Shown: positions 25,462 through 50,054 of the stretch, one piece after another
How the letters are laid out: each line of letters starts with the position of its first letter
Position numbering within the stretch: position 1 is the first letter of the stretch
Source of the DNA: Puniceicoccales bacterium
GTDB taxonomy: Bacteria > Verrucomicrobiota > Verrucomicrobiia > Opitutales > UBA9783
DNA: 64,000 nucleotides
NCBI GenBank assembly: GCA_031283895.1
Contig: JAITAV010000024.1
Span: forward strand, 10,980 to 74,979
Reading direction: 5' to 3'
Position numbers and translations under genes: made by a program
The notes under the pieces: model-generated
The model's database searches: none
The model's input: only the letters and a program-made list of their open reading frames with translations
Told to the model about the DNA's origin: nothing

Positions 25462-26920
25462 ATGTTATTTTGCGACCCAAAGTATTTTGCAATTTTCTTA
25501 CCCATAGCGGCATTCTTATATTGGTTTTCCATAGGGAAAGGTAAATTTCGCTGGACCTTACCCCTACTGATGATTGCATCCACCGTATTTTATGCCACGT
25601 GGAGTATCAAGTTTTTCGTTCTGTTGACGTTGTCCGCTTGTATAAATTATGCCTTCGGATATTTTTTGTTGACCTATGAAAAAGAGAGGACGAACAAGCG
25701 AAAACTATTACTCATTTTAGGCATCTTATTCAACGTTGGATTGCTGGGGTACTTCAAATATTTCAATTTTTTCGTCGACAACTGCAATCACTTTTTCGGT
25801 ACCCAATGGAACATTCCTAAAATCATTCTTCCTTTGGGGGATCAGTTTTTATACTTTCCAACAACTTGCCTACCTCGTCGATGCCTACAAACGTACCGTT
25901 GCACGCTGTTCTTTGGGACAATATGTACTGTTTGTAATCTTTTTTCCGCAATTGGTTGCAGGTCCCATTGTGCATTATCAAGAAATGATCCCACAATTTG
26001 GAAAAGTACGAGTCATCGATTGGGAATCAATGTACCGTGGAATTACCATTTTTGTTATTGGATTGGCTAAAAAAATTCTTATCGCGGACACGCTTGCCAC
26101 TTACGTCCAAAACGGCTACGCACACGTGGATCAATTGGCCTTCGTAAGTGCGTGGATCGTAAGTTTATGCTACACATTTCAGCTCTATTTTGACTTTAGC
26201 GGGTACGCCGACATGGCAATCGGTTCAGGCTTGCTATTCGGCATTCGACTTCCGGAAAATTTCAATTCTCCCTACCAAGCCCTCGATATCCAAGATTTTT
26301 GGCGGCGCTGGCACATGACTCTCAGCACGTGGTTGAAAAATTACATCTACATCCCTCTCGGCGGCAGTCGTTGTTCGCAAGCACGCACATGTGTAAATTT
26401 GTTTCTCACGTTTTTTATCGGCGGCATTTGGCACGGAGCCGGCTGGGGATTTATCGTTTGGGGTACGTTGCACGGCTTGGCAACCGTTGTACACCGATTG
26501 TGGCAATTAGCGGGGATCCATTTCAGTAAACTTGCTGCGTGGCTGATCACTTTCAACTTTATCAACATTGCTTGGATATTTTTTCGAGCAGAATCATTAT
26601 CTAAAGCCACAACAGTTTTGAGAAAAATGTTTGATCTAAGTTGCCTCAATGGTGTGGATACATACACAACCTTGCGAGAGGCAAGACAGCTCATCGGCGG
26701 CACATTGTTTTCTGGAAGTCAATGTTTGCAACTTATACTTATGTGCTGTGCTCTCATTTTACTATGCCTGCGTTTCAAAAATGCTCAACGATGGACTGAG
26801 CGATTAACCCTGAGGCCATCACTTTTCAAAACATGTGTCTTAAGCTTAGTCGCATGGTTTTCATGGGCTATAATAGCTCAACACGCCGATAAAATTGAAT
26901 TTCTCTACTGGCAATTTTAG
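25462..26920 (+). pseudogene. MBOAT-family O-acyltransferase (AlgI/DltB-like) with a +1 frameshift in a G-run
   Basis: The first frame ends ...KIILPLG. The second frame continues ISFYTFQQLAYLVDAYKR...FFPQLVAGPI...RRWHMTLSTWL...YIPLGGSR...GGIWHGAGW. The shift is at G5 25836-25840; G4 would restore one ~485-aa ORF. Confidence 0.8.
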
Positions 26921-26933: not shown

Positions 26934-28103
26934 ATGCAAGCAAAACGTCAAATCATCTTCTTTATTTTGCTCAACGTATGTTTGTTTACAAGTACAGTGC
27001 TATTTAATTACGTTATCGATCCCTTCTGCATCTTTCATAAACCCATTTTTAAAAAACCGATTTTTTTAAACCACGAGGTTTTTATGAATCTTGGACAAAT
27101 TGAAATTTTTCTCAAAAAAACGGACGATTATGATACCCTTTTGATAGGGACTTCGCATACAGAAAATTTCCTTGCGGATGAAATCACCCAAGCCTTAAAA
27201 AGCAAAGGAACGCTTAAATTATGTTTAAGCGGAGGATATCCGGTTGAATTGGAAGCAATCGTACAAAAAGCGCTGACAACAGGTAAAGTAAAAAATATTG
27301 TTTGGGGATTTGAATTATGTCAGTTTATTTTACCCGCTTATACACCGCATGAAAGTCGCATATTCCCGTACCATTTGTATAAAAATAAGTTGCCATTGTT
27401 ATTTGATGCACGCGTATTAAGGACGTCCCTTAAGCTACTATTATGGCATTGCCGGCTCAAAAATATTAAATTTTCATGGCATTACAACAATACGCTCAGT
27501 TCTGTGTATTTCTATCATGATCTACCCTACATTCTTGATATGCATAAATGTTTTGTTACTCCAGATACCTTAAAGAAAAGCCAAGCAACTCGTTATCGTT
27601 ATGATATGTTTCCATGCCCAAATTGGGATGCAACTTTTTCAGCCATTGGCACGCACCTGATTCCCATTATAGAAGCACATCCTGAAATTCAATTCTACAT
27701 CCCCATAATACCCTACAGTTGGATTTATTTTATTTCCAGAGATGTTAAAAATCTGGAAAAGATTATACTTTGCCAGCGCTACTTATGTAAGCGAACTTCT
27801 GCGTTTAAGAATACACGTTTGTACGCCTTTCACACATGTCAATTCCCGCACAATTTAGCCAACTACTATAACGAAACCCATTATCACCCCGACATTAATC
27901 GTTACATGTTGTACGCAATCCAGAATGATCGACATCGATTGACGATGGAAAATTTAGAACAATACGAACAAGCAATGATTGAAAATTTAAAGGCGTTCGA
28001 AATAAAAGATGCTTATCCTCATATGGATAGCCTCGAAGATATCATACGGCAAGAAGAAGCCAAATTATCCTCTCCGAATAAGCCACTGTTGAGCCACAAA
28101 TAA
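26934..28103 (+). CDS. N-terminally anchored protein downstream of the MBOAT gene (candidate AlgJ/DltD-role partner)
   Basis: Single N-terminal TM (IIFFILLNVCLFTSTVLF). Position immediately after the MBOAT stop. No catalytic motif confidently identified. Confidence 0.4.
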   Translation: MQAKRQIIFFILLNVCLFTSTVLFNYVIDPFCIFHKPIFKKPIFLNHEVFMNLGQIEIFLKKTDDYDTLLIGTSHTENFLADEITQALKSKGTLKLCLSGGYPVELEAIVQKALTTGKVKNIVWGFELCQFILPAYTPHESRIFPYHLYKNKLPLLFDARVLRTSLKLLLWHCRLKNIKFSWHYNNTLSSVYFYHDLPYILDMHKCFVTPDTLKKSQATRYRYDMFPCPNWDATFSAIGTHLIPIIEAHPEIQFYIPIIPYSWIYFISRDVKNLEKIILCQRYLCKRTSAFKNTRLYAFHTCQFPHNLANYYNETHYHPDINRYMLYAIQNDRHRLTMENLEQYEQAMIENLKAFEIKDAYPHMDSLEDIIRQEEAKLSSPNKPLLSHK

Positions 28104-29912
28104 GTTCCACAATTGTATTTCGTGGTTACACTTGCCGGACAAGTGTTCCTGCCAAAGTTGTTTGGCTTTTGTACGATCGATGTGATTCCAAAGCAGCGTA
28201 TGTGTCTCCAAATATTGTTCCAAAGTTGAACGGAGGGACGTACGCAACGATTGGCCAAGCGGCATACCAAATCCCATCTTAGGGCGATTCCACAAGGCTT
28301 TCGGCACATAACGTTCCAACACACGCTTGAGTAAGTATTTTTTTACACCTCCTTGAAACTTGCGTACCAAAGGGATTGACCAGGCAAAATCAACCAGATT
28401 GTAATCCAAAAAAGGTGCGCGTGTTTCCAAACCAACGGCCATGCTTGCTCGATCAACTTTGCACAAAACATCATCGTGCAGGTAGGTCCGCATATCAAGG
28501 TACATGACTTGTTCGGCATTATTCTGCAGGTGTGGATGTAACCGAAACCAAGTTTTTTCCAAAATAACGGGCCTATCAAAGTAAGTCATGCTATTAAGAT
28601 ACGTGGATAAAAAATCTTTACCTCGCAAACTCTTCACCGCTTTGTGTAATTTTAAATGCAGTAGGGGACATCGCTTCGAAAGTAAACGGCTCTCTATTGT
28701 TTCAAATAATGAAAGTATAGGGATAGGCAACCATTTGCGCAGTGTATCCAACCGAGGAACCCATTTATGTCGATGATAGCCAACAAATAACTCGTCACCT
28801 CCATCGCCGCCGATGGCAACCGTGACATGTTTTTTAAATAGTTTGGAAATGAGATACGTGGACAAAGCCGACGCATCGCCAAACGGTTCGTCATATATTT
28901 GTGTAATATCATTTGCATTTTCCAATACGGCATCTGGATCGACGAACAACGTTGTGTGATCCGTTTTTAGATGCTGCGCTATTGCCTCCGCATGCTTCGA
29001 TTCATCCCACGGAGAATTTTTAAAACCGACCGTAAACGTTTTTATCGGCTGCGTACTCCGAGCTTGCATTAAAGCCACCATCAACGAAGAGTCAATTCCC
29101 CCGGACAAAAATGCCCCCACGGGAACATCGGCCAACGTACGATCATATACGGATTGCCTCAACAGACGTTCCAATGCATCCACGCATTCATTTTCGGGTA
29201 AAACTACTCTCTGTCGATCTTCCAGCGTATTGTTTAGATCAAAGTATACAGTTTCTTTTATACCAGTGGTAGTAACCATCAGATGGTGCCCCGGGAATAA
29301 TTTTCGTGCACCTTTGTAAATTGAGTAAGGGCAAGGAATATAATTGAGGCATAAGTAAAGATCCAGAGCTGTTTCATCCACCGTTCGATCAAAATCCGGC
29401 ATTGGTAATAGGGCTTTCAATTCGGAACCAAACGCGAAATATTGTCCATCAACAAAGCTGTAATAAAGCGGTTTTTCTCCAAAACGATCGCGTGCAACGT
29501 ACAAAATTTTCTCCCGCGCATCGTAAAATGCAAACGCAAACATACCGTTAATCAATGGCAATGTTTTTGATACACCCAATTGAATGCACAGCTGCAATAA
29601 AACTTCCGTATCGTTGTGCGCTTCGCAAGCAATTCCTTGATTTTTTAGATATTGAGCTAACGTTTTGTAATTGTAAATTTCACCGTTAAAAACGAGTACA
29701 TAGCGTCCATCTTCTGAGCACATGGGCTGATGACCACGAGCACTTAAATCTATAATAGCTAAACGCCGTTGCCCTAGGCCGATCGACTCTTTGAGCCAAA
29801 TGCCTTGGTCGTCTGGGCCCCGGTGTGCCAATGACCGAGTCATTGCGGTAACGGTTGTTGCCAAATCATCAACATCCGACTTAAATCGCCACAAACCCGT
29901 TACACCACACAT
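28065..29912 (-). CDS. asparagine synthase (glutamine-hydrolysing)-family amidotransferase
   Basis: N-terminal MCGVTG nucleophile, RGPDD, PP-loop FLSGGIDSS. Located in a glycan operon, i.e. WbpS-like context. Confidence 0.88.
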   Translation of the reverse strand: MCGVTGLWRFKSDVDDLATTVTAMTRSLAHRGPDDQGIWLKESIGLGQRRLAIIDLSARGHQPMCSEDGRYVLVFNGEIYNYKTLAQYLKNQGIACEAHNDTEVLLQLCIQLGVSKTLPLINGMFAFAFYDAREKILYVARDRFGEKPLYYSFVDGQYFAFGSELKALLPMPDFDRTVDETALDLYLCLNYIPCPYSIYKGARKLFPGHHLMVTTTGIKETVYFDLNNTLEDRQRVVLPENECVDALERLLRQSVYDRTLADVPVGAFLSGGIDSSLMVALMQARSTQPIKTFTVGFKNSPWDESKHAEAIAQHLKTDHTTLFVDPDAVLENANDITQIYDEPFGDASALSTYLISKLFKKHVTVAIGGDGGDELFVGYHRHKWVPRLDTLRKWLPIPILSLFETIESRLLSKRCPLLHLKLHKAVKSLRGKDFLSTYLNSMTYFDRPVILEKTWFRLHPHLQNNAEQVMYLDMRTYLHDDVLCKVDRASMAVGLETRAPFLDYNLVDFAWSIPLVRKFQGGVKKYLLKRVLERYVPKALWNRPKMGFGMPLGQSLRTSLRSTLEQYLETHTLLWNHIDRTKAKQLWQEHLSGKCNHEIQLWNLFVAQQWLIRRG

Positions 29913-29954: not shown

Positions 29955-30855
29955 TTATTCTTTTTTGTAAGCTATTGCACACCAATTAACATCCGGATCC
30001 GTTGAGAAAGAGACGTTGTGTAACCCACAGCGCATCATCATTTGAATGATGTCAGCTTTTGAAAAACGTTTTTCAAGACATGTTCCAAAACGGTCCAACG
30101 CGCAATTTCTCATGTTGTAAAACGACCCACCACGATGCGCACTTAAGGGAATATGCTTCACGTTAAAACTACATTTCTCCAGTATTTGAGCAAATTTCGC
30201 CAACGGCCAATAAACCAATAAGGCGATGCTATCCGTAACACACCTTTTTAGGAGGTGTGGCAAGTGACAAATGCATTTTCTCAGCAAATCACTGCACTGC
30301 CAAACAAAACGAAACCACCACGGCCTATTTTCAAAATTGTAGTACATGTAAACTAAAAATGGGGCACCCGGTTTCAATTTATCAACACAGATTTGCATGG
30401 CTTGTTCGGTGTTCGGAATGTGGTGCAAAACCCCTAAACAATAACCAAAATCTTGACTGTTATCCGCCAAAGGCATGTTGTCAATCGTCGTATTATGAAA
30501 AGCTATATTTGAAAAATTTTTCAATTTTTGCTTCGCGATTTCCAAAGCCGACGAAGGCTCTATACAGTTTAATTTTCCAACTTTGGGAGCCGCATACAAA
30601 GCCCAACGGCCATTGCCACATCCCGCATCAAATCCTTCTGCATTTCGATCAATTTTTTCCCAAGGGAAAATACTAAAATATTGGTTAAATTCTTTCTCTA
30701 AATCGTATTGAGGTCGCGTATCGTTTGTAAAATCGCACCATTCTCTCCCAAAGTGTTCAATAACCCTCTGGTCTCGATTGTCGATTGTCGATTGTCGATT
30801 GTCGATTGTCGATTGTCGATTGTCGATTGTCGATTGTCGATTGTCGATTGCTCAT
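29955..30855 (-). CDS. class I SAM-dependent methyltransferase, out of frame with its ATG as sequenced (phase OFF)
   Basis: The body frame encodes ...FDAGCGNGRWALYAAPKVGKLNCIEPS (motif I), CLGVLHHIP, LKPGAPFLVY. The only upstream ATG (30855) is separated from the body by 11 copies of a 7-nt repeat and is in a different frame. The ATG frame stops at 30757-30759. Confidence 0.7.
30774..30850 (-). repeat. perfect heptanucleotide tandem repeat, (CAATCGA)11 on the coding strand
   Basis: Counted directly: tcgattg x 11, 77 nt, no interruptions, starting 2 nt after the ATG-AGC of the methyltransferase gene. Confidence 0.97.
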
Positions 30856-30889
30856 GGAAATCATAGATTTTGCACATATCCCGTTGTTG

Positions 30890-31834
30890 TCAAAACAAAA
30901 ACGACATTTTGTCGACCATGCATTTTAACCCCTCTTCTAGGTTGACAGTTGGATACCACCCCAGTAAACGTCCCGCTTTTTCGGTATTGGCAAACGTATG
31001 CATCATGTCGGATGCGTTGAAGGGATGATGTTCAAGAACAGCTTTTTTATTCAAATAATATTCCAATAAACTTATCATTTCATGGATCGTGTGCGGACGT
31101 TCGTTGCCGAGGTTAATGATTTCATAACCCAGCGGCTTACTGGCCAAAGCAATGCCGCGTGCGATGTCGTCTATAAACGTAAAATCTCGTGATTGCATTC
31201 CATCTCCGTTCAACGGCAATGCTCTACCGGCCGCGATGCATTTCATGAATTTGTCCGGGCTCATGTCGGGACGTCCATAGGGTCCGTACACGGTAAAACA
31301 ACGCAAAATGGATACATCAATCCCATACAGATAATGATAGGTGTAACACAACATTTCGGCTGCTTTTTTGGAGGCTGCGTAGGGAGAAATCGGTTCATTG
31401 ACCGGTAAAGTTTCCACGAACGGCATCGCTTGCCCTGCGTACAAAGAGGATGTGGATGTAAAGACCAATTTTTTGGTTTTGTGAACGCGCATGCATTCTA
31501 GTAAATTAAGCAATCCGAGTACATTGGTGCGAATGTAGATGTCGGGCGTTTCCAAACTTGCACGCACTCCGGCACGCGCCGCAATATTGTAGACGGCATC
31601 GAAGGTATGTTGATTAAATAAATCTTGTAAAAATACTTTATCCTCAATATCCGCTTTCACAAACGTAAAATTACCTTTTAAAGCTTCGAGGTTTTTTAGT
31701 CGAAAACGTTTCAACTGCGGATCGTAATAGTCATTTAAGTTATCAATTCCAATTACGGAGACATTATCGCACAGGAGAAGCTCGGTCACTTTCGATCCAA
31801 TAAATCCAGCACAGCCTGTTACCAATACTTTCAT
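30890..31834 (-). CDS. NAD-dependent nucleotide-sugar epimerase (UDP-glucuronate 4-epimerase-like)
   Basis: MKVLVTGCAGFIGS, STSSLYG-like TSTSSLYAG, YAASKKAAE (YxxxK). ATGA overlap with the upstream GT. Confidence 0.8.
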   Translation of the reverse strand: MKVLVTGCAGFIGSKVTELLLCDNVSVIGIDNLNDYYDPQLKRFRLKNLEALKGNFTFVKADIEDKVFLQDLFNQHTFDAVYNIAARAGVRASLETPDIYIRTNVLGLLNLLECMRVHKTKKLVFTSTSSLYAGQAMPFVETLPVNEPISPYAASKKAAEMLCYTYHYLYGIDVSILRCFTVYGPYGRPDMSPDKFMKCIAAGRALPLNGDGMQSRDFTFIDDIARGIALASKPLGYEIINLGNERPHTIHEMISLLEYYLNKKAVLEHHPFNASDMMHTFANTEKAGRLLGWYPTVNLEEGLKCMVDKMSFLF

Positions 31835-32943
31835 GAACACGTATTTTGCACCGTTTGAAATATTGCGGCATTGACGGCGTGGATATCAAACTTTTTTTCA
31901 GCTAACTTGCGACTAGCTAATCCCATCGTATGTAATAATTCTGGCTGATGAATAATTTTTTCCATAGCGTTTAAAAGTGCTTCTGTACTGCGTGGTTGTA
32001 TCTTAAAACCATTTTCACCATCGATAACGGTCTCTTTGCAACCTACACTGTCCGTCGTAATGACAGGCCGTCCGCAAGCCAACGCTTCCAACAATGCCCG
32101 CGGCACGCCTTCACGATAATAAGAAGGGTATACAAACACAGAACTCTGCCTCATTTGCTCAGCCATATGTGAACAGTAGCCTATGAATTCTATGATGTTT
32201 GCGCATAGCTTTAATTGTTCTTCCGTAATAGCCGATGGATTTGTATCAATATGACCTGCCAACACAAAACGTACGTTCGGGTACTTCGTTTTTAGCTGTT
32301 GTGCCGCTTCAACATAATGAAATACACCCTTTTCTTCAATCAAACGTGCAGCCATAAAAAACGTCAACGTTGCCGGAAGTGACTGCGGTGTAAACGCCTG
32401 CAGATCTACACCGGTCCCGTTAACGACCGACGAGCGTACGTCATCCACCAATCCATGCTGTATAAAAAACACCCTATCATCCTGATTCTGAAAAAACACG
32501 TGCGTAAAAGCTTTAAAGCTCAATTTATACAAATACATACAAATACGTTTAACGAACGCACGTTTGCCCCCAGGTTGCTCAATGAAGGCATATCCCAATC
32601 CCGATACCAATCCATAGATGTTCTTAATCTTTAACCAACGAGACACAAAGCCACCATAAATATTCGGTTTGACGTTGCCAAAAAACACAATATCTGGCTT
32701 TTCTCGTTTGAGTAAGGTATGTATGTGCAGTAGCGTTTTTAAATTATTTAATAAGCCAACCGATGTACCACTAAATGCATCCAATGGAACAAAATTTACG
32801 GTGGGCAGTTGCTTTTGCCAAATAGATATTTCCTTTGCGGGCAGCCCCACCGAAACGGATAGTCCCTTTTGCGAAAACTCTTGCATTAACACATGCCGTA
32901 AATTAATCGCTCCTGGGTTGAATAAAAATAATATCTTTTTCAT
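31831..32943 (-). CDS. GT-B glycosyltransferase, family 4-like
   Basis: C-terminal EGVPRALLEALACGRPVITTDSVGCKETVIDGENGF (E-x7-E region). Confidence 0.85.
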   Translation of the reverse strand: MKKILFLFNPGAINLRHVLMQEFSQKGLSVSVGLPAKEISIWQKQLPTVNFVPLDAFSGTSVGLLNNLKTLLHIHTLLKREKPDIVFFGNVKPNIYGGFVSRWLKIKNIYGLVSGLGYAFIEQPGGKRAFVKRICMYLYKLSFKAFTHVFFQNQDDRVFFIQHGLVDDVRSSVVNGTGVDLQAFTPQSLPATLTFFMAARLIEEKGVFHYVEAAQQLKTKYPNVRFVLAGHIDTNPSAITEEQLKLCANIIEFIGYCSHMAEQMRQSSVFVYPSYYREGVPRALLEALACGRPVITTDSVGCKETVIDGENGFKIQPRSTEALLNAMEKIIHQPELLHTMGLASRKLAEKKFDIHAVNAAIFQTVQNTCS

Positions 32944-33238
32944 GAATTTATTATGATCGTACATGCTTAAATAAATATAGCCAATTGTCTAGACTGTATT
33001 AAATTCTGAAAAACATATTCGCATATGTTGATGAAATTATATCAAGGGTAGCTTTGATGATTGGTAATTTTTAATCAAAAGATAGCGACCACATATTTCA
33101 TTAAACTGCATAAGGTTTAATTTCTAACGTGGTCCATTCGACGAATAACCACTCCAAATGTTAAATTTTAAATCCTTATGATATTAGAATGCTTACATAC
33201 ATCTTTTCCGGAGCAAATCCATAGAGCACACCCCTACG

Positions 33239-34471
33239 TTAAGGGTTTTTGTGCTTATCTAAGGAAGGAGCTTTTGCGTAATACAATAATCCCAACAACA
33301 CCAGCCAAACGGGAATAAATGCTTCACTGTGCCTATTTAAATTAAGATAATTGAAAGCCTCACATCCTGTTATAGTATAAGCCAGTAGAAAGACGAGCAA
33401 CATTACAATTTGCTGTATTTGTTCTCTCCTAAAATATTTTCTGTTTTTTATACATAAGTACATGATATATAACATCATCGTTAGGAAGAAAATATTTGTT
33501 TTTACGGCATATATCCACCCCAATTTGGAACCCTGGGGTGCTTTGTGAAAAAACTGCTCGGAATTGGTAATCATCGGAGCAAACCAGGCATTGCCAATCC
33601 TTTTCAAAGAGCTACCATTATCAGGAATGTAACTGTTCCCCAACGACCTGAACCACAACGGACCCCTATTTAATATTTTTGCCTTAAAAAAGTATTCCAA
33701 ATGCCCTTTTGCATGAAACCAATGGAATAATACCCCACTTATAAAGATTAACAGGAACACATTTTTGGGGAACTTAAGAAGGATAAAAGAACATAGCAGG
33801 CAGCAGACAAAAGAACCATAATAGTGTTTTTGGGCAAGAAAACATAACGTCAAACTTCCCAATATCCCAAAAAGATTTCGCTTGACCAACATCCATAAAA
33901 ATAAAGATTGTGCAAATAGACAAAAAGTTGAGGTTAGAGGGAGTGGGCAGGACAGAAAAAATCTTGGCGCTACTAGCCAAAAAGTGTAAAAACAAATACG
34001 CGTAAAACGTTGCGATGCACCCAAAAATTGCAACGCCTGATAAAAGAAAAACAACCCCCACAAAGATAAACTGATCATTAACAACCCTGTACTAAACAGA
34101 CTTAGATAAAAATGATCTCCAAAGAAGCTTCTTATCTTAGAGAAAAGCCATAGGTGTTGTAAATTCCCATACACCAGCCTAGTGACTTGCCCAATTACGT
34201 CTTTCAAAGTAACGGAAAAATAATCCATCTTGTATTGAGAATGAAACTTAGCAAGATCTTTTGGGTAATAATAGCCTTCGTGATCCAATGCAATATGAAA
34301 TAAGTCATAGTTCCTCCATACATACATGTGATAGACTAAAGAAAAAAGTTGTATAAAAACCGTCAAATAAACAAATATCCAAAACCATCGTTGCTGCGTT
34401 TTTTTACAAACAAAAACTAGTGTCGCAAGACATGTTATAACACATACAACTGTTGCCAATAAAACGCTCAT
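33239..34471 (-). CDS. polytopic membrane protein (GT-C-like or polymerase-like), function unknown
   Basis: ~10 predicted TM helices. Abuts the Wzy-like gene with no gap. Confidence 0.45.
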   Translation of the reverse strand: MSVLLATVVCVITCLATLVFVCKKTQQRWFWIFVYLTVFIQLFSLVYHMYVWRNYDLFHIALDHEGYYYPKDLAKFHSQYKMDYFSVTLKDVIGQVTRLVYGNLQHLWLFSKIRSFFGDHFYLSLFSTGLLMISLSLWGLFFFYQALQFLGASQRFTRICFYTFWLVAPRFFLSCPLPLTSTFCLFAQSLFLWMLVKRNLFGILGSLTLCFLAQKHYYGSFVCCLLCSFILLKFPKNVFLLIFISGVLFHWFHAKGHLEYFFKAKILNRGPLWFRSLGNSYIPDNGSSLKRIGNAWFAPMITNSEQFFHKAPQGSKLGWIYAVKTNIFFLTMMLYIMYLCIKNRKYFRREQIQQIVMLLVFLLAYTITGCEAFNYLNLNRHSEAFIPVWLVLLGLLYYAKAPSLDKHKNP

Positions 34472-35854
34472 CTATATTTCCTTACGTAAACTCAACGGAA
34501 GCAGCCAATATAAATATGGATTCCCTGTTATTGATCCCATAAAACAGTTTTGGAGAAAAATTAAAATAAAAAAAGAAAGAAATAGAAATGTTCTTGGAGA
34601 AAGTTGCTGTCTTTTACACAAAAAACCAAAGCAAACAATAACAGGTAAAAAGAATAGAAGTATGCCTACTAGGCCTAAAGTAGATAATATTTCAAAAAAA
34701 ATATTATGTGGACTAGTGCGAGAATTTTCAAAACCTATACCGAATTGGGGCCTCATTGACCAAACATAAAAAGATTGCAATAGCATAATTTGTCTCGGAG
34801 AACTAAAAATAGGATTCTTAATGGACTCATCCATATAAACAGGGGGAAATATCCATTGCCTCATCGATAAATAATTAGATTTTATTTGTTCCTGACTTAA
34901 TGCAAAACTACTCGCATATTTTATTGTTCTTTTGGTAAATGCTTTATTCTTGCAAATCCATAAAGAACAGATAATGAAACAACACAAAGCAACTATTTTC
35001 AATATCTTGTTATTCCTTATAAATATAAAAAATGTACTCAGATATATGGCCAAAGTTAACAGAAAAAATAAATTCGATTGCCTATAATGTACCTGCCAAT
35101 TTTCCCACAAAGATAAAAAACAAGATAGAACTAGATTAACTTTTAAAAAACGAAATTTTGCTTTCTCAAAATATAAAAATGCAAATATTGCAAAAATGTA
35201 ACATTGTTTTAGTACCAATCCATTCAGATAAGTTATTTGCTGATCATCATAAAGGTAGTAACATTTAAAGCCATGTAAAAGCAAGTAACAAATTATGAAC
35301 ACCTGCGAACAACATATAAGAATATACCACTTTTTTAAAAACTTTTTATCGGCAAAATTCACAATAAAAAAAGCTACCATTAGAGTAAAAAACAATGTAA
35401 ACAAACGTAACCCTGCAGAACTTCTCCTCCATACCTCATTCTCGCCCAAATGATAATTATAATAACAATAACAACAATCCGGGGTTAACCAATAATTAAA
35501 CAAGATGTAAATACCAAATACTACGTATAAACCTAAGCATATGTTGGCTTCCTTATTATTTTTAATAATATGACTTTGGTTGCACGTTTTGCTAATAACA
35601 AGATACGCCATAGCACAAATAAATAAAGTAAAACAAAAAATCGTCACTTTACCTAATAACACAAGCCCCCAAGGCAACTTTGAAAAAATGGAAGGCCATG
35701 CCACAATTCCGATACATAGGGTAGGAAGAAAAAATAAGCCCCACGTAGATAATAAAAATCCCAATTCTCCAATCCGTAAAATAAACGACCTTATTTTTAC
35801 ATTTTCGTTATGGTTACACTTCATGATATGATAACAAATTTTACAAATCCACAA
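34472..35854 (-). CDS. O-antigen polymerase/ligase-family membrane protein (Wzy_C domain)
   Basis: Polytopic, with the motif SPHNIFFEILSTLGLVGILLF typical of the Wzy/WaaL family. Confidence 0.65.
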   Translation of the reverse strand: MWICKICYHIMKCNHNENVKIRSFILRIGELGFLLSTWGLFFLPTLCIGIVAWPSIFSKLPWGLVLLGKVTIFCFTLFICAMAYLVISKTCNQSHIIKNNKEANICLGLYVVFGIYILFNYWLTPDCCYCYYNYHLGENEVWRRSSAGLRLFTLFFTLMVAFFIVNFADKKFLKKWYILICCSQVFIICYLLLHGFKCYYLYDDQQITYLNGLVLKQCYIFAIFAFLYFEKAKFRFLKVNLVLSCFLSLWENWQVHYRQSNLFFLLTLAIYLSTFFIFIRNNKILKIVALCCFIICSLWICKNKAFTKRTIKYASSFALSQEQIKSNYLSMRQWIFPPVYMDESIKNPIFSSPRQIMLLQSFYVWSMRPQFGIGFENSRTSPHNIFFEILSTLGLVGILLFFLPVIVCFGFLCKRQQLSPRTFLFLSFFILIFLQNCFMGSITGNPYLYWLLPLSLRKEI

Positions 35855-36578
35855 TTACATCATTGCATCCCGGAATAGGGTAAGGCTGCAAAGGGTGTTT
35901 TCGCAAAACAACTTGATATAGGTTAGGGACATCGGAGGACCACATTTTGACAATATCGGATAAATGTTTTAAGGTCCAAGATCTAGCAAATGAATTTGTA
36001 AATGTAAAGAAAATTAATCGAATGTCCAGCCATAGGGAAGTGTGTTGTATGTATAGAAGCGCCAAACGGGATTTCCATGGACGTTCTATCTGTGCATATA
36101 CAAGGTCCGGATTGGTGGCTCCTTCGAGAATTTCACCTTCATCCGAAAACACGATGGAAGCTAGATCGGTAATGCCCGGCTTAACGGTCAATATATCTTT
36201 TTCAACATCCGTATAACGATTGACCTCGATGGGAACTTGCGGTCTAGGCCCTACCCAATTCATATCTCCTTTGATAACATTAATAATTTGAGCTAACTCA
36301 TCCACTTTAAATCGACGCACCCATTGACCTATGGGTGTAATCCGAGGATCATCGTTGGCAGTCGAATCTATTTTATACCTATGGGCATCGGCAACCATCG
36401 AACGCAATTTAATCATGTTAAAAAGTTTCCCATTCCTACCGACACGCGGTGCCACATAAAACGGATTCTTCCGATCGTACAGAAAAATCAGGAATGCAAA
36501 CCATAAAACAATCGGTAAACAGACAACACCCGCCATCATATTACAAATCCATCCACAAATACGACGCATAAAAATCAT
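35841..36578 (-). CDS. second phosphoglycosyl transferase (bacterial sugar transferase family)
   Basis: NPFYVAPRVGRNGKLFNMIKLRSM, DELAQIINVIKGDMNWVGPRPQ. ATGA overlap with the E1 beta stop. Confidence 0.85.
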   Translation of the reverse strand: MIFMRRICGWICNMMAGVVCLPIVLWFAFLIFLYDRKNPFYVAPRVGRNGKLFNMIKLRSMVADAHRYKIDSTANDDPRITPIGQWVRRFKVDELAQIINVIKGDMNWVGPRPQVPIEVNRYTDVEKDILTVKPGITDLASIVFSDEGEILEGATNPDLVYAQIERPWKSRLALLYIQHTSLWLDIRLIFFTFTNSFARSWTLKHLSDIVKMWSSDVPNLYQVVLRKHPLQPYPIPGCNDVIVDL

Positions 36579-37549
36579 AACATTGCTTTAACGTGTTGGC
36601 AAACTTGCTCCACCGTTGGGTAGTAAATTTTCTCAAGTGCTCTGCTCGTAGGTGCTGGTGCATCGACCAACGTAATTCTTTGAGGATTCTTTTTTAATAG
36701 CTTTAAATCCATAGTTTCAAGTGTTTTTGTAATAACTTCCGCAGTCAATCCACACGAAGCCCAACCACCATCGACCACCAATAAACGACCTGTTTTTTCA
36801 ACCGAATGTCTAACAACATTGATTTTCAATGGATTCAATACACGCAAATCAATCACTTCACACCGAGTACCCTGTAGAGTCAATTGTTCTGCAGCTTGCA
36901 TACATAAATGCGTACTATAACCTGCTCCTACTAGAGTTATGTGTTGCCCTTCTCGTATACACTTGGATTCTATATTATTTAAAGATAGTTCCTGTATTTC
37001 CGTCACAAGTGATGTTGTCTCATATAACCAACGATCATCTATATAAATAACTGGGTCATCACATAAAGTTGCGGCAATTAACAAATCATGTGCATCTTGT
37101 ACAGAATAAGGCATTACAACTCTTAACCCAGGTATATGCATCAACCATGCATGAAGTGCTTGTGAATGTTGCGCGCCTTGCTCACCACCGCGATTGATAA
37201 TTAAACGAGCTGTCAATGGAACATGAGACTGTCCTCCAAACATGTGTGACCATTTTGCAGCTTGATTGACCAATTGATCAAAAGCTAAAATTGCAAAATC
37301 CATTCTAGGGTGAACACAGACAGGACGCATTCCATTGAGAGCTGCCCCCACACACATACCTGTAACACCTAGCTCTGAAATGGGTGTGTCGATAATACGA
37401 CCTTCTCCGTAAGTAACGTCTAAACCTATCATTGATGTACCAACGTACCAAGGACTCCATACACCTTGACCTATAACAAAAACATTATCATAATGCTTCA
37501 GTAAATAATCAAAACCCAAACGAATACTTTCGGCATAATTTAATAACAT
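36575..37549 (-). CDS. 2-oxoacid dehydrogenase E1 beta-like subunit (transketolase Pyr + C-terminal domains)
   Basis: VFVIGQGV, IDTPISELGVTGMCVGAALNGMRP, LRVLNPL, LLVVDGGW. Confidence 0.85.
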   Translation of the reverse strand: MLLNYAESIRLGFDYLLKHYDNVFVIGQGVWSPWYVGTSMIGLDVTYGEGRIIDTPISELGVTGMCVGAALNGMRPVCVHPRMDFAILAFDQLVNQAAKWSHMFGGQSHVPLTARLIINRGGEQGAQHSQALHAWLMHIPGLRVVMPYSVQDAHDLLIAATLCDDPVIYIDDRWLYETTSLVTEIQELSLNNIESKCIREGQHITLVGAGYSTHLCMQAAEQLTLQGTRCEVIDLRVLNPLKINVVRHSVEKTGRLLVVDGGWASCGLTAEVITKTLETMDLKLLKKNPQRITLVDAPAPTSRALEKIYYPTVEQVCQHVKAML

Positions 37550-37556
37550 AATATTT

Positions 37557-38549
37557 TCAGTTCTTATATACCCAACGTAACAATTTGTCTTCGGTAGCAT
37601 AAGGAGCCTGCAAAGCTATTTCCCAAGCACACTGAATACGCTTTCGTATTTCTTCTTTTAAAATATCAAAACCTTCCTCTGAAATTAATGCTTGTTCCAA
37701 CATAGGCTTATAAAGACGCGTAACAGGATCACAGTGCTGTTTCCAAAACTCTAAATCTTCCGAACGTTTCAATCCTACATCCACATCTTCGAGATGTCCA
37801 ACATGTCCTTTCCAACGATACGTCATCACTTCAACAAAGTAAGGAACGCATTTTGTGCGTATTTTACCGATGATTAGTTTTAGTTTACGATAGAGTAATG
37901 TTACATCATTTCCATCCAATTGTATATGGTTAATGTTATGTGCCTGAGCAAAACGTACGGTACTAGAAGCTGTTTGCCGTTGAAGTATGTGTAAATGGCT
38001 TGCAAACAGATTATTTTCGCACACAAAACAAACTGGCAACTGCATTTTTGCAGCTAGATTAAAGGTCTCGTGCATGACCCCTTCTTCAGTGGCGCCATCA
38101 CCAAAAAAAGCAACGGCAACCGAAGACATATTGCGCATTTTCATTGCTAAAGCAGCACCCGCAGCAATCGGTATCGTAGCACCCACAATGGGAACAGATC
38201 CGCCAAAACCTTTCGATTCTTTAATTAAATGCTGAGACCCCCCCATACCTTTAGAACATCCAGATTCCTTACCTAAAATTTCACTTATCAAGTCTTCAAT
38301 ATCGTCTGTCATTGCTAAATAATGGTTATGGGAACGGTGAGTTCCGTAAACGCGATCTGATTTTGTTAGACACTCTGACAAAGCAACCGGCGCTGCCTCT
38401 TGCCCAACAGCCAGGTGGCATGGACACTTAATATCTCCACTACCAACCTTTTGGGCAATCCATTCTTCTGTTTCACGGATTATTAACATTTTATGCAAAA
38501 GCCGGAACAATGCATTACTTGATAGGCCACTGATATCTGAATAATGCAT
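37557..38549 (-). CDS. 2-oxoacid dehydrogenase E1 alpha-like subunit (ThDP-binding)
   Basis: ThDP motif VAFFGDGATEEGVMHETFNLAAKMQLPVCFVCENN, plus YRWKGHVGH. Confidence 0.85.
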   Translation of the reverse strand: MHYSDISGLSSNALFRLLHKMLIIRETEEWIAQKVGSGDIKCPCHLAVGQEAAPVALSECLTKSDRVYGTHRSHNHYLAMTDDIEDLISEILGKESGCSKGMGGSQHLIKESKGFGGSVPIVGATIPIAAGAALAMKMRNMSSVAVAFFGDGATEEGVMHETFNLAAKMQLPVCFVCENNLFASHLHILQRQTASSTVRFAQAHNINHIQLDGNDVTLLYRKLKLIIGKIRTKCVPYFVEVMTYRWKGHVGHLEDVDVGLKRSEDLEFWKQHCDPVTRLYKPMLEQALISEEGFDILKEEIRKRIQCAWEIALQAPYATEDKLLRWVYKN

Positions 38550-38555
38550 AGTTAT

Positions 38556-39671
38556 CTATAAAAACCTACTTATTGTTTCACAAATATAATCCACTTCATC
38601 GTCGGTAACGGACGTATTCAATGGGAGAATGAGACAGCGTTTGAATAACAATTCAGTCCGAGGCAAGTGAGAAATGTCAAAATGCATATCCTTTACCAAT
38701 GCCTTAATTTGATGTAAGGCGCATCCTCCCCATTGGATGATTGTCTCGATACCACGTTCTCTAAGGAAATCTCTCAACGCATCTCTATTCTCGGCTTCAA
38801 TCTCAAAATTTTGGTAAATATCAAAATGCTTGGCATCAACGTTGGGAGCCGGTGGCAAAGTAACCTCGGGTATTGAAGCTAACCGATTGTAGTATCGTTG
38901 CGCAATTTCACGACGACGTTGCATCGTCTGTGGGTAATGTTTAAATTTGGCCAACAAAACGGCCGCCTGCACATTATCTAAACGAGAATTAATACCCCAC
39001 ATACAAACTTGATTTGTTTTGGGATCGCGTCCATGATCTCGCATGCATACAATTGCTTGATAAATAGCCGGATCGTCGGTTAAAACAATACCACCATCGC
39101 CAAAGCAACCTAAAACCTTTGCTGGATAAAAACTGATGGATCCCGTTTTCCCCCATGTACCCGCGCACCGATTTAAGTATTTGGATCCCAAAGCTTGAGC
39201 CGCATCCTCTAAAATCACCAAATGATACTTGTCGGCAATCGTTTGCAAACGATCCATTTCGCACGTACGACCGTTCAATTGAGTTGGTATAATGGCTTTC
39301 GTTTTCTGGGTAATTGCAGCTTCCACCTTGCTGACATCCATCAAATGATCGTCGCCGCAATCCACTAAGACCGGAATGGCTCCCAACCAGCTTGCCGCCG
39401 TGGCCGTTGCAATAAAGGTATGTGAGGCCATAATTACTTCATCACCTCTGCCAATCCCGCATGCCTTCAGCATTAAAATAAGACTGTCGGTTCCATTCCC
39501 TACACCGATGGCGTATTTTGCACCCGTAAAATCGGCAATTGCTTGCTCAAAATCTTTGAGCTCATCTTGCATAATGAAAGCTCCCTTATTTAAAACAGAT
39601 TGCAATGCCCGATCGACGTCGACTTTAAATTCGTTGTACAGAAAATCGTAGCGAAAATAAGGAATTTCCAT
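38556..39671 (-). CDS. DegT/DnrJ/EryC1/StrS-family sugar aminotransferase
   Basis: GVGNGTDSL, ILEDAAQALG, SFYPAKVLGCFGDGG (PLP lysine). Confidence 0.87.
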   Translation of the reverse strand: MEIPYFRYDFLYNEFKVDVDRALQSVLNKGAFIMQDELKDFEQAIADFTGAKYAIGVGNGTDSLILMLKACGIGRGDEVIMASHTFIATATAASWLGAIPVLVDCGDDHLMDVSKVEAAITQKTKAIIPTQLNGRTCEMDRLQTIADKYHLVILEDAAQALGSKYLNRCAGTWGKTGSISFYPAKVLGCFGDGGIVLTDDPAIYQAIVCMRDHGRDPKTNQVCMWGINSRLDNVQAAVLLAKFKHYPQTMQRRREIAQRYYNRLASIPEVTLPPAPNVDAKHFDIYQNFEIEAENRDALRDFLRERGIETIIQWGGCALHQIKALVKDMHFDISHLPRTELLFKRCLILPLNTSVTDDEVDYICETISRFL

Positions 39672-39672
39672 A

Positions 39673-40491
39673 TTATTTTTGCACTTTAGGACCTTTGGCA
39701 CAAAAGACAAACTTAAAAGCATATTTTTTAAGAAAAGGGAATACGTCATCCAGCCTATCCACCCACTTTGCCGTGTAAGCTTCTCCAATTAAGTACTTTA
39801 AAAACGGTCCCATAAATGCAAACGTACCGCAGTATTCGATTTCAAACGACTGAAAACGAGATCGTATCTTATCCAGCGTCGGTTTTTTAGGTACCCCTGT
39901 AACGGTTTGTTTAGTGGTGTAATGAAACCAGTAATTGAGCTGACGCTTTAAGTTGAATAAGGGGTTATATCCGTAGGTATCTACTGCGATAAAGGCACCA
40001 TCCGGTTTGAGCCAACGGCATATTTTTTCCAGCACGACATCGAGATTTAAATACGATAAGCTCCCCGACATGCAAATCATGTCGAAAAATTCATCTTTAA
40101 ACTGGCACTGTTCTGAATCACCTACTTCAAAGCGGAGATTTGAGAGCTGTCTTTTTTTTAATTCCCTGACGGCAACCTGAATGCTTTCTGCTGAATAATC
40201 AACACCCAATACGGTCCCATGAATCAGTTCTGCAATACGGAAGGTAAATTCTCCCATGCCACAACAAAGGTCAAGTACTTGGATGGGTCTCGGTAGTAAA
40301 GATCCGCAGCGGTGTATCATCGTCTCGTAGATACGGTACGGTTTTTGCAAGTATTTTGGGAAAGCACCCATGGAAAAACGACAACTGCCTATATTTTTCA
40401 AAGATTGCTTTTGATACCAAACTTTTTCGTCATTTTTTTCACTGTCCGACAATTGCATATGATATTGTTTACATAGACTGCTTCTCACCAT
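39673..40491 (-). CDS. class I SAM-dependent methyltransferase
   Basis: Motif I VLDLCCGMGEFTFRIAE, then GVDYS and FDMICMSGSL. First gene of the long minus-strand operon. Confidence 0.75.
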   Translation of the reverse strand: MVRSSLCKQYHMQLSDSEKNDEKVWYQKQSLKNIGSCRFSMGAFPKYLQKPYRIYETMIHRCGSLLPRPIQVLDLCCGMGEFTFRIAELIHGTVLGVDYSAESIQVAVRELKKRQLSNLRFEVGDSEQCQFKDEFFDMICMSGSLSYLNLDVVLEKICRWLKPDGAFIAVDTYGYNPLFNLKRQLNYWFHYTTKQTVTGVPKKPTLDKIRSRFQSFEIEYCGTFAFMGPFLKYLIGEAYTAKWVDRLDDVFPFLKKYAFKFVFCAKGPKVQK

Positions 40492-47995: not shown

Positions 47996-48215
47996 GCGTT
48001 CGTTAAGATTTGGCTAGTTTTTCAAAGACAATATCTTTGAAAAATGTTATCAGCATCTCTAAGAATACGTTCTTGAAGGGTATTGAGAAATGCAACTGTA
48101 GGTTACGCAGACGAACAGGTAGGTAGCGGTTAGGTGTAGCGTGACAAATACAACCATACCATGCACGATCGATGGTCGTTGGAGGTAAAGGTTTTATTGC
48201 CGCGTGATTTGTAAC

Positions 48216-48244
48216 AAATAAAAAAACAGGGGCCTTTCGGCCCC
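48216..48244 (-). terminator. rho-independent terminator on the minus strand with no annotated gene upstream of it
   Basis: ggggcc-gaaa-ggcccc hairpin followed on the minus strand by tgtttttttatttg (T7). Confidence 0.6.
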
Positions 48245-48874
48245 ACCTAAAGATAACAAAATGATGTAAAATGATTTGTTAGTCTGTAGATAGGACCTTG
48301 TGCTTTTCTTTTCGTTCAAAAATTTTTATCGAAAATTTTATTTTACCGATCATGCGTTAAAATCTTTAAGTCCTATCAAGCACACAGCATCGATGGTCTT
48401 TGACAAGTTCGAAGGATCCAGAAGTCTTAAGGATGGATCGCAGTCACAAATGTTAGTGCTTGTTTTATTTAACGCAAAGTTTACTCATATTAGCAAAGCT
48501 GATTTTTCCACAGAATGTACCGTTTGGAGGTCGATGAATTCATAATATGCAGGTGTAAAAGCGCATATATTGTAATTTAGATTCAAATGGAGTTTATTTT
48601 GTTAAAATTTTCTCATGAACCTAGAAGACGTATTCTCCTAAAATGCCATTGAATTTAACAAAAACGTATAAGGCGAGGGGGCTGAACACAGCGGGACCGA
48701 ACTATTGCAGATGAAGTGTTTATGATTAGACCATCGACATTGGCCAAGATCTTACAAGATCAAAAAACGATACTTCCTTTTTGTAACATTCTTCCATCAC
48801 TCTCTTCTTACAAATTTATAAAAACGCAGTTGACTCCCACGGCCTTTTTCATTGTGTTGATGGTGGCAAGGTTT

Positions 48875-48950
<76 letters not shown>

Positions 48951-49682: not shown

Positions 49683-50054
<372 letters not shown>

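What the first reader, a model, noticed from the sequence alone, without database searches (positions are those of the whole stretch)
30774..30850. Eleven-copy heptanucleotide repeat inside the 5' coding end of a methyltransferase: candidate phase-variation switch, currently OFF
(CAATCGA)11 begins 2 nt after ATG-AGC at 30855-30850. Seven is not a multiple of three, so each copy gained or lost shifts the frame. With 11 copies the ATG frame terminates at 30757-30759 after ~32 codons. The methyltransferase body, including motif I FDAGCGNGRW, is open in another frame. That frame has a TGA immediately upstream of the repeat (30852-30854) and no ATG/GTG/TTG until 30599, which is past motif I. Ten or 13 copies would place the ATG in frame and prepend (NRQSTID)n to the enzyme. 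The repeat contains no stop codon in any frame. A perfect 77-nt microsatellite in a glycan-modification gene is the hallmark of a contingency locus. Heptamer units are much rarer than homopolymer or tetramer switches.
Basis: seen in the sequence. Interest (0 to 1): 0.8.

Follow-up and report, generated by a model that had tools for sequence, protein, structure and literature searches.

The report
Repeat-switched glycan methyltransferase gene, currently OFF
Eleven perfect copies of a 7-base repeat just after the start codon put a sugar-coat methyltransferase gene of an uncultured Verrucomicrobium out of frame; relatives carry 1 to 17 or more copies, so this is very likely a reversible on/off switch of a well-known kind, found here in a new phylum and enzyme family.

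Summary
(CAATCGA)x11 lies at 30774-30850 on the minus strand, 2 nt after a conserved ATG. The ATG frame stops after 32 codons. The intact 272-codon class I SAM methyltransferase body is in another frame, with no canonical start before motif I.

The organism is not a known pathogen. It is an uncultured Puniceicoccales (Verrucomicrobiota) MAG, and the gene sits in a surface-polysaccharide cluster.

Seven related genomes carry 1, 2, 4, 5, 5, 11 and at least 17 units at the same site. The gene is ON only when n = 1 mod 3. The body has dN/dS of 0.05-0.14, as constrained as its intact neighbours.

Sister clades have different non-triplet repeats at the same 5' site: CAGCCAA, AGCAACAG and, inferred from proteins, TCAACGAG and GAACCTCA. 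In one sister clade, ten contigs from different samples have zero substitutions in the 816-nt body. Nine of them carry 5 to 11 heptamers; the tenth has a scaffold gap inside the repeat.

Seventy-two more distant family members have no repeat there.

Verdict: a slipped-strand phase-variation switch, OFF in this assembly. It works like neuO and pglE. It is a new member of a known kind. Switching within one population was not observed.

The parts
30774..30850 (-). (CAATCGA)x11 perfect heptanucleotide repeat. This is the hypermutable tract. It encodes (NRQSTID)n in every frame.
30853..30855 (-). Start codon ATG (ATG-AGC) of the methyltransferase, 2 nt upstream of the repeat. Present in all seven related genomes.
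   Evidence: annotated start of the intact orthologue P0001
30862..30864 (-). Upstream ATG in the same frame as 30855 (reads M-I-S-M-S...). It is ATA or absent in three relatives, so it is probably not the start.
30875..30877 (-). ATG in the third frame. It would give a full-length product if n = 0 mod 3. Found only here and in L002; two relatives have ATG-TGA at this position.
30757..30759 (-). TGA that ends the ATG-30855 frame after 32 codons when 11 units are present.
30852..30854 (-). TGA in the methyltransferase frame, directly upstream of the repeat. It overlaps the ATG-AGC start.
29955..30773 (-). Body of the class I SAM-dependent methyltransferase: 272 codons plus a stop, intact, and out of frame with the start codon.
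30603..30632 (-). SAM-binding motif I, FDAGCGNGRW. G, C, G, G, R and W are invariant in 42 homologues.
30597..30599 (-). TTG, the first canonical start codon in the methyltransferase frame. It lies downstream of motif I; JGI called a 214-aa fragment from here.
30890..31834 (-). Upstream neighbour: SDR-type nucleotide-sugar epimerase/dehydratase. Its stop codon lies 34 nt before the methyltransferase ATG.
28065..29912 (-). Downstream neighbour: AsnB-like glutamine amidotransferase, 615 aa. Its start lies 42 nt after the methyltransferase stop.
31831..40491 (-). Rest of the same-strand polysaccharide cluster: GT4 glycosyltransferase, two membrane proteins (one weakly Wzy-like), Bac_transf priming transferase, E1 dehydrogenase pair, DegT aminotransferase and a second methyltransferase.

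Best explanation
This is a simple-sequence contingency locus. The heptamer array lies between the conserved ATG and the catalytic body of a glycan-cluster methyltransferase.

Inferred mechanism: slipped-strand mispairing during replication adds or removes 7-nt units. Each change moves the body into or out of frame with the ATG.

Shown: the enzyme is made, with a disordered (NRQSTID)n tail, only when n = 1 mod 3. With 11 units, as assembled here, translation stops after 32 codons and the enzyme is OFF.

Inferred consequences: cells of one lineage alternate between methylated and unmethylated surface polysaccharide. Premature termination may also reduce expression of the downstream amidotransferase through polarity.
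For: 1. Anatomy. The array is perfect and 77 nt long. It starts 2 nt after the start codon, its unit length is not a multiple of 3, it has no stops in any frame, and ON/OFF follows n mod 3.

2. Copy number in the same clade. Seven genomes (12-17% nucleotide divergence over the methyltransferase body, from dN and dS; 10.5-13.9% in the AsnB-like gene) have a different array at the same site:
- 11 units, OFF (window)
- 4 units, ON (L001)
- 2 units, OFF (L002)
- 1 unit, ON (L006)
- 5 units, OFF (L007)
- 5 units, OFF (L008)
- at least 17 units, with the assembly broken inside the array (L129/L005)

3. Selection. Pairwise dN/dS of the body is 0.046-0.137, including pairs in which both genomes are OFF. 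This is no higher than the intact neighbours: AsnB-like 0.118-0.156 and epimerase 0.056-0.151. Three OFF genomes, including the window, keep an intact 272-codon body.

4. Recurrence in sister clades at the same 5' position, with different units:
- (AGCAACAG)x3 on DNA in L132.
- (CAGCCAA)n on DNA in L133-L142.
- (STSQRVNE)x5 and one versus two copies of (EPQNLRTS) in proteins. Each peptide back-translates to exactly one possible unit: the octamers TCAACGAG and GAACCTCA.

5. Population-level hypermutability in an orthologue. Ten contigs from different samples have 0 differences in the 816-nt body. Nine have 5, 5, 6, 8, 8, 9, 9, 9 and 11 heptamers, all OFF; the tenth has a scaffold gap in the array. 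ON alleles with 4, 7 and 13 units and the same body exist as proteins.

6. Control. 72 more distant family members (47-53% identity) have no repeat of unit 4-12 nt with 3 or more copies near the 5' end.

7. Tolerance of the tail. In an AlphaFold2 model (mean pLDDT 92.8) the repeat-encoded residues 1-25 are unstructured (pLDDT about 56). The fold begins at residue 28.

8. Precedent. neuO works the same way, and 65.6% of 64 complete genomes were OFF.
Against: No reads were available, so switching within one population of this organism was not seen. The count of 11 is an assembly consensus.

The seven relatives are different species-level lineages, not strains, so their differences give no rate.

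Three of the seven have further lesions in the gene: a 1-nt deletion in L002, a 1-nt deletion in L005 and a 10-nt deletion in L006. In some lineages the gene is therefore being lost rather than switched.

Only one of the seven (L001) is ON and fully intact.

In this genome the neighbouring MBOAT gene is also frameshifted.

Pairwise dN/dS cannot detect a recent permanent inactivation.

No other simple-sequence switch is present in the 64 kb window.

The substrate of the enzyme is unknown.
Confidence: 0.8

Rival explanations
1. Dead gene. The methyltransferase is a pseudogene in this genome, and the repeat expansion is just the lesion that killed it. There is no adaptive or reversible switching.
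For: Three of seven orthologues carry independent frameshifts elsewhere in the gene. Four of the six genomes with a scorable array are OFF. The adjacent MBOAT gene in this same genome is split by one extra G in GGGGG at 25836-25840. This suggests that glycan-decoration genes are expendable here.
Against: The body is intact over 272 codons here and in two other OFF genomes. Its dN/dS is as low as that of intact neighbours. A perfect 11-unit array can revert by the same slippage that made it. Different non-triplet repeats recur at the same site in sister clades but are absent from 72 distant homologues, which is hard to explain by decay alone. In the orthologue, ON and OFF alleles coexist with an identical body. 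Coding density of the window is about 85%, so the genome is not decaying.
Confidence: 0.12
2. Assembly or consensus artefact. The true or dominant count is 10 or 13 (ON), or the population is a mixture that the assembler collapsed to 11.
For: The sequence is a metagenome-assembled contig. An independent k=31 Logan assembly of run SRR14710909 breaks on both sides of the array. In a related genome the array broke the JGI/NCBI assembly.
Against: A 77-nt array can be spanned by ordinary 150-nt reads. The Logan breaks are what a small k-mer would produce, not evidence of error. Arrays of 5 to 11 units were assembled in many independent samples of the orthologue. A mixture would support phase variation, not contradict it.
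Confidence: 0.08
3. The repeat is a non-coding 5' leader array, like the intergenic heptamer arrays seen upstream of start codons in other bacteria. The enzyme would then start downstream of it, so the frame of the repeat would be irrelevant.
For: (CAATCGA) arrays of 3 or more units occur in at least 120 loci of many phyla. About 60% of them lie outside long ORFs, against 28% of random positions. TAACTGA arrays upstream of start codons are described in PMC4679880. In the gut orthologue a GTG lies just before VKHFG, and gene callers use it for OFF alleles.
Against: In this clade the ATG-AGC upstream of the array is conserved in all seven genomes. ON alleles read straight through the array. There is no ATG/GTG/TTG between the array and motif I in any of the seven. 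Only an ATT at 30761-30759 and another at 30671-30669 are available; the latter is the one NCBI used for its 238-aa call (P0123).
Confidence: 0.03
4. More than a binary switch. The length of the (NRQSTID)n tail also tunes enzyme activity or assembly, as repeat number does in NeuO. In this genome the second ATG at 30877 would make n = 0 mod 3 a second, weaker ON state, giving three expression states.
For: ON alleles with 1, 4 (this clade) and 4, 7, 13 units (orthologue) exist, so tails of different length are tolerated. The ATG at 30877 gives full-length products for n = 0 mod 3. All four OFF genomes of this clade have n = 2 mod 3. NeuO activity is reported to rise with repeat number (ref. 36 cited in PMC13001214).
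Against: The tail is predicted to be disordered. The ATG at 30877 is not conserved; two relatives have ATG-TGA there. Four of four in one OFF phase has a chance probability of about 1 in 8. OFF alleles of the orthologue occupy both OFF phases.
Confidence: 0.15

Closest known systems
neuO, the polysialic-acid O-acetyltransferase of E. coli K1 (CUS-3 prophage)
   Same: A heptanucleotide repeat (AAGACTC) lies in the 5' coding region of an enzyme that decorates a surface polysaccharide. It is ON only in one of three repeat phases. Three heptamers add seven residues to the N-terminus. Copy number ranges widely (3-53), and about two thirds of genomes are OFF (PMC13001214).
   Different: The enzyme class differs (acetyltransferase versus class I SAM methyltransferase), as does the unit sequence. 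neuO is prophage-borne, whereas this gene sits inside a chromosomal polysaccharide cluster with conserved gene order. The organism is an uncultured Verrucomicrobium. A tail-length effect on activity is known for NeuO and untested here.
pglE, a pilin-glycosylation glycosyltransferase of Neisseria meningitidis
   Same: Phase variation of a glycan-modifying enzyme is controlled by a heptanucleotide repeat in the coding region (PMC7157529).
   Different: It is a glycosyltransferase of a protein-glycosylation pathway in a proteobacterial pathogen with dozens of other phase-variable genes. Here no second switch is seen in 64 kb.
Tetranucleotide and heptanucleotide contingency loci of Haemophilus influenzae (lic/lgtC type; AACAACC in TonB-dependent receptor genes)
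   Same: Simple repeats with non-triplet units lie at or near the 5' end of surface-structure genes. Copy number differs between strains, and some alleles are frameshifted (PMC2651432). From my own knowledge, lic1 has ATGs in two frames upstream of the repeat, giving graded expression; the ATG 30877 / ATG 30855 pair here resembles that.
   Different: Mostly 4-nt units; a different phylum and different gene families.
Poly-G phase-variable capsule O-methyl and MeOPN transferase genes of Campylobacter jejuni (my own knowledge, not checked here)
   Same: Switchable methylation-type decoration of a surface polysaccharide.
   Different: Those use homopolymeric tracts, not a heptamer. The enzymes are unrelated as far as tested: no specific match was found in Pfam, NCBIfam or PDB searches.
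Intergenic heptamer arrays upstream of start codons (TAACTGA repeats of Beggiatoaceae, cyanobacteria and Bacteroidetes)
   Same: Tandem 7-nt units next to translation starts. CAATCGA arrays themselves are widespread in other phyla.
   Different: Those arrays are non-coding and proposed to bind a translational regulator. Here the array lies downstream of a conserved ATG and is translated in ON alleles.

Membership tests
Simple-sequence (slipped-strand) phase-variable contingency locus | Perfect tandem repeat with a unit length not divisible by 3, inside the reading frame near the 5' end | tested here: met
   11 perfect 7-nt units starting 2 nt after the ATG
Simple-sequence (slipped-strand) phase-variable contingency locus | Gain or loss of units toggles between a full-length and a truncated product | tested here: met
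   In-silico alleles with n = 0-15: the product is 276-304 aa for n = 1, 4, 7, 10, 13 and 11-61 aa otherwise
Simple-sequence (slipped-strand) phase-variable contingency locus | Copy number differs between related genomes while the flanks are conserved | tested here: met
   1, 2, 4, 5, 5, 11 and at least 17 units in seven genomes of the clade. In the 72%-identical orthologue, nine of ten contigs with an identical 816-nt body carry 5-11 units; the tenth has a scaffold gap in the array
Simple-sequence (slipped-strand) phase-variable contingency locus | The gene is otherwise intact and under purifying selection | tested here: met
   272 codons without a stop. dN/dS is 0.046-0.137, against 0.056-0.156 for neighbours. 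Three relatives do carry extra lesions
Simple-sequence (slipped-strand) phase-variable contingency locus | High-frequency, reversible switching within a clonal population | not testable with these tools
   No reads or cultures are available. Only one sample holds this strain
Simple-sequence (slipped-strand) phase-variable contingency locus | ON and OFF states give different phenotypes (methylated versus unmethylated glycan) | not testable with these tools
   The organism is uncultured and the substrate is unknown
NeuO-type heptad-tail enzymes | Heptanucleotide repeat in the 5' coding region, with three units adding a 7-residue peptide repeat | tested here: met
   NRQSTID per three units
NeuO-type heptad-tail enzymes | Homology to the NeuO acetyltransferase | tested here: not met
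   The only Pfam matches are class I methyltransferase domains. The fold search returns only Rossmann-type methyltransferases
NeuO-type heptad-tail enzymes | Catalytic efficiency scales with repeat number | not testable with these tools
   Needs recombinant enzymes
Class I SAM-dependent methyltransferase (Methyltransf_11/25) | Pfam domain above the gathering score, glycine-rich motif I, and a Rossmann-like fold | tested here: met
   PF08241 scores 54.9 bits against a cut-off of 21.2, and PF13649 scores 50.5 against 27. The G-C-G-x-G-R-W motif is invariant. The AlphaFold2 model has pLDDT 92.8, and its best PDB matches are all SAM methyltransferases with TM about 0.5
Decaying pseudogene | Several independent disabling lesions and/or relaxed selection | tested here: not met
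   The only lesion in the window's gene is the repeat phase, and dN/dS is low. The criterion is met in L002, and possibly in L005 and L006
Non-coding 5'-leader heptamer array (TAACTGA type) | Array lies in the untranslated leader, upstream of the start codon | tested here: not met
   A conserved ATG lies upstream of the array. ON orthologues translate through it. There is no canonical start between the array and motif I

The most novel reading that the evidence does not exclude
The 5' end of this methyltransferase family is a site where non-triplet repeats have been invented independently at least five times in related Verrucomicrobiota. The units differ: CAATCGA, CAGCCAA, AGCAACAG, TCAACGAG and GAACCTCA. 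One of these lineages is abundant in what appear to be human-gut metagenomes. That would mean switchable methylation of a surface glycan is under recurrent selection in this group. In addition, the repeat-encoded disordered tail, which grows in 7- or 8-residue steps, together with a second out-of-frame ATG, would make the locus a graded controller rather than a plain on/off switch.
Probability: 0.25. Interest if true: 0.7.

Novelty: new member of a known kind. Interest (0 to 1): 0.55.

Why it matters
Simple-repeat phase variation is documented almost entirely in cultured pathogens such as Haemophilus, Neisseria, Campylobacter, Helicobacter and E. coli K1. A literature search found no report for Verrucomicrobiota.

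Here a whole orthologous group of glycan-cluster methyltransferases in uncultured Puniceicoccales-like bacteria carries such switches. One member is seen in dozens of contigs whose record names look like human-gut cohorts.

If this holds, surface-glycan methylation in these commensals or symbionts is a bet-hedging trait, plausibly against phages or host immunity. It can be read directly from public metagenomic reads by counting repeat units per sample.

It also warns annotators. Pipelines called this gene as 214-aa and 238-aa fragments with TTG or ATT starts, which hides the switch.

Tried and rejected
1. My first guess was a Coxiella burnetii O-antigen region with a 7-bp MLVA marker. I rejected it: the nearest proteins are from Puniceicoccales MAGs.

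2. A metagenome scan with a flank pattern (TTTGGGAGRGAATGGNNNGAYTTTAC) found nothing. That collection evidently lacks the samples that hold this clade.

3. Sequence and fold searches against solved structures gave only generic class I methyltransferases, with TM about 0.5 and identity at most 24%. No substrate could be assigned.

4. I tried to learn the habitat of the MAGs from the literature and found no relevant paper. A search for the string CAATCGA returned only primers.

5. I tested whether CAATCGA arrays in other phyla sit just upstream of gene starts in a preferred orientation. They are enriched outside long ORFs, but the orientation bias was not clear (21 forward versus 15 reverse). 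I left this open.

6. The 369-aa versus 357-aa forms of the GT4 gene in the gut orthologue looked like a second switch. The DNA is identical, so this is a gene-calling difference.

7. Programmed ribosomal frameshifting on the array: there is no X XXY YYZ slippery motif in CAATCGA and no evidence for it, so I did not pursue it.

8. Exact look-ups for more samples of the window's own strain found only the one run, SRR14710909. Its Logan contigs break at the array.

Full report
**Observation**

Tandem Repeats Finder reports 30774-30850, period 7, 11.0 copies, 100% identity, score 154. Nothing else in the window scores above 54. A three-unit probe matches only there, with 0.00 matches expected from shuffles.

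Read on the minus strand, the gene begins ATG(30855) AG, then (CAATCGA)x11, then GACCAGAGGGTTATTGAA....
- The ATG frame yields a 32-residue peptide ending at the TGA at 30759-30757.
- The frame that encodes the enzyme opens right after a TGA at 30854-30852. It runs through the repeat and 272 further codons to the stop at 29957-29955.
- Its first canonical start is the TTG at 30599, two codons after motif I (FDAGCGNGRW, 30632-30603).

I rebuilt the gene with 0-15 units. A full-length product from ATG 30855 appears only with 1, 4, 7, 10 or 13 units.

**Gene and organism**

The body matches Pfam class I methyltransferase domains well above threshold. It has thousands of homologues of 270-290 aa. 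With 42 homologues it folds as a confident Rossmann-type methyltransferase (pLDDT 92.8). The repeat-encoded first ~25 residues are unstructured.

Searches of solved structures give only generic SAM methyltransferases, so the substrate is unknown.

The neighbourhood is a surface-polysaccharide cluster on the same strand:
- a second methyltransferase
- a DegT aminotransferase
- an E1 dehydrogenase pair
- a Bac_transf priming transferase
- two membrane proteins, one weakly Wzy-like
- a GT4 glycosyltransferase
- an SDR epimerase
- this methyltransferase
- an AsnB-like amidotransferase

An MBOAT acyltransferase and a UDP-glucose dehydrogenase lie beyond.

The closest proteins are named 'Puniceicoccales bacterium' MAGs. 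The window is part of an 88,150-nt contig held by NCBI and JGI. My initial idea of Coxiella was wrong. Coding density is about 85%, so the genome is not in general decay.

**Relatives in the same clade**

I fetched the orthologous locus from six other genomes via their protein clusters. Gene order is conserved. The ATG-AGC start is present in all seven. The array differs in each:

| Genome | Units | State | Other lesions |
|---|---|---|---|
| window | 11 | OFF | none |
| L001 | 4 (last unit degenerate) | ON | none; annotated as a 285-aa protein starting MSSNRQSTIDNQ |
| L002 | 2 | OFF | 1-nt deletion in the body |
| L006 | 1 | ON | 10-nt deletion near the C-terminus |
| L007 | 5 | OFF | none |
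| L008 | 5 | OFF | none |
| L129/L005 | at least 17 | unknown | assembly broke in the array; 1-nt deletion near the C-terminus |

An independent Logan assembly of the window's strain breaks on both sides of the array. This is expected for k=31 and says nothing about the count.

The bodies of the window, L007 and L008 are intact. The lesions in L002, L005 and L006 are listed above.

**Selection**

Pairwise dN/dS of the body is 0.046-0.137, with dS 0.36-0.85. This includes pairs in which both genomes are OFF. The always-intact neighbours give 0.118-0.156 (AsnB-like) and 0.056-0.151 (epimerase).

The gene has therefore been functional through most of the divergence of these lineages. The OFF states must be recent or reversible. 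This test cannot separate those two possibilities.

**Sister clades**

This is the strongest evidence.

The 74%-identical orthologue (L132) has (AGCAACAG)x3 directly after its ATG.

The cluster around P0004 (72% identity) contains proteins that differ only by 1, 2 or 4 copies of PTANSQQ at the N-terminus. It also contains a 271-aa form that starts at an internal GTG.

Ten contigs carrying that 271-aa form come from different samples. Their record names look like human-gut cohorts; that reading is my inference. All ten have zero nucleotide differences over the 816-nt body. Nine carry 5, 5, 6, 8, 8, 9, 9, 9 and 11 copies of CAGCCAA/CAACCAA after ATGAATAATCAATTAAACTCA, all out of frame. The tenth has a scaffold gap inside the repeat. 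The ON proteins correspond to 4, 7 and 13 units. The repeat therefore mutates far faster than the rest of the gene, and ON and OFF alleles coexist in one species.

Two further clusters show (STSQRVNE)x5 and one versus two copies of (EPQNLRTS). Each of these peptides, like NRQSTID and PTANSQQ, can be encoded by three copies of exactly one unit:
- NRQSTID from AATCGAC
- PTANSQQ from CCAACAG
- STSQRVNE from TCAACGAG
- EPQNLRTS from GAACCTCA

As a control, 72 more distant family members (47-53% identity) from a metagenome scan have no repeat of unit 4-12 nt with 3 or more copies within -160 to +40 nt of the body start.

The switch is thus a recurrent feature of one subfamily, built from unrelated units.

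**Mechanism**

Shown:
- the anatomy of the locus
- the n mod 3 rule
- variation between genomes
- hypermutability in an orthologue
- constraint on the body
- a disordered tail

Inferred:
- Slipped-strand mispairing changes n in this organism at a useful rate.
- The population mixes methylating and non-methylating cells.
- OFF alleles may lower expression of the downstream amidotransferase by polarity.

In this genome and in L002, a non-conserved ATG at 30877 in the third frame could make n = 0 mod 3 a second ON state. This is speculative.

**Rivals**

- Permanent pseudogene (0.12). It is supported by the extra lesions in three relatives and by the frameshifted MBOAT next door. The intact, constrained body and the recurrence of repeats speak against it.
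- Assembly artefact or mixture (0.08). This cannot be excluded without reads.
- Non-coding leader array with a downstream start (0.03). It fails because the upstream ATG is conserved and no canonical start follows the array.

**Comparison with known systems**

The locus works like neuO of E. coli K1: a heptanucleotide repeat in the 5' coding region of a capsule-decorating enzyme, ON in one phase of three, 3-53 copies, 65.6% of genomes OFF (PMC13001214). It also resembles pglE of Neisseria (PMC7157529) and resembles heptanucleotide loci in H. influenzae (PMC2651432).

It is not a member of the NeuO protein family. Heptamers are reported as the commonest long simple repeat in most genomes surveyed (Mrazek 2007, as cited in PMC4679880), so the unit length itself is not remarkable.

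What is new:
- the phylum, with no report found
- the enzyme family
- the independent re-invention of the switch in several lineages

I rate it a new member of a known kind, interest 0.55.

Noticed in passing
window 25462-26920 (+), G-run at 25836-25840: The MBOAT O-acyltransferase gene next to the cluster is split into two overlapping ORFs (202 and 394 aa). The cause is one extra G: GGGGG here, against GGG or AGGG in three intact orthologues of 484-531 aa. The Logan assembly of the same strain shows the same split (296 + 202 aa). This is a second inactivated glycan-decoration gene in this genome. The tract is too short to be a typical switch.
   Followed up: partly
The hits span many phyla, including Desulfobacterales, Acidobacteriota, Bacteroidales, Planctomycetota, Verrucomicrobiota, Chloroflexota and Brachyspira. 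Several MAGs carry it on 3-4 contigs. The arrays are often next to related CAATCGN or inverted GATTGAY arrays, and many lie directly before a start codon. 60% lie outside long ORFs, against 28% of random positions. No clear orientation bias was found. This resembles the TAACTGA leader arrays of PMC4679880.
   Followed up: partly
L133-L142, and proteins P0152-P0161: An orthologous methyltransferase appears in what seem, from the record names, to be human-gut metagenome assemblies. It has a (CAGCCAA)n switch with 4-13 units and an otherwise identical gene. Roughly 29 contig records carry ON forms and 17-18 carry the OFF form; these counts are not de-duplicated.
   Followed up: yes
L002 about 5505; L005 about 825; L006 about 6690 (orthologous methyltransferase genes): Independent lesions in three relatives: loss of one A in GGAA (L002 and L005, at different sites), and a 10-nt deletion between two TTGGA direct repeats (L006). 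dN/dS is still low, so these are either recent mutations or assembly errors.
   Followed up: partly
window 30597-30671 (-): Public annotations hide the switch. JGI called a 214-aa fragment from the TTG at 30599. NCBI called a 238-aa protein whose 'M' sits on an ATT codon (P0123 and P0126).
   Followed up: yes
L134 1434-2395: In one sample of the gut orthologue, the SDR epimerase upstream of the methyltransferase is called as two ORFs (199 + 121 aa) instead of 311 aa. This suggests a frameshift there as well.
   Followed up: no
L005 1-60: In the genome with the longest array, the 3' part of the array is preceded by about 45 nt of degenerate 7-periodic sequence (AAATCC CAAAAGC TAAAATC TACAAAC ...). 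The array may be much longer than 17 units and partly decayed. The two contig ends do not overlap.
   Followed up: partly
window 49697-50060 (+); 2717-2793 (+); 48875-48950 (+): RNase P RNA (class A, 226.6 bits), tRNA-Met and tRNA-Phe. These are ordinary features and explain part of the largest ORF-free gap (47996-49646); the RNase P RNA itself lies under a spurious 109-aa ORF on the opposite strand.
   Followed up: yes
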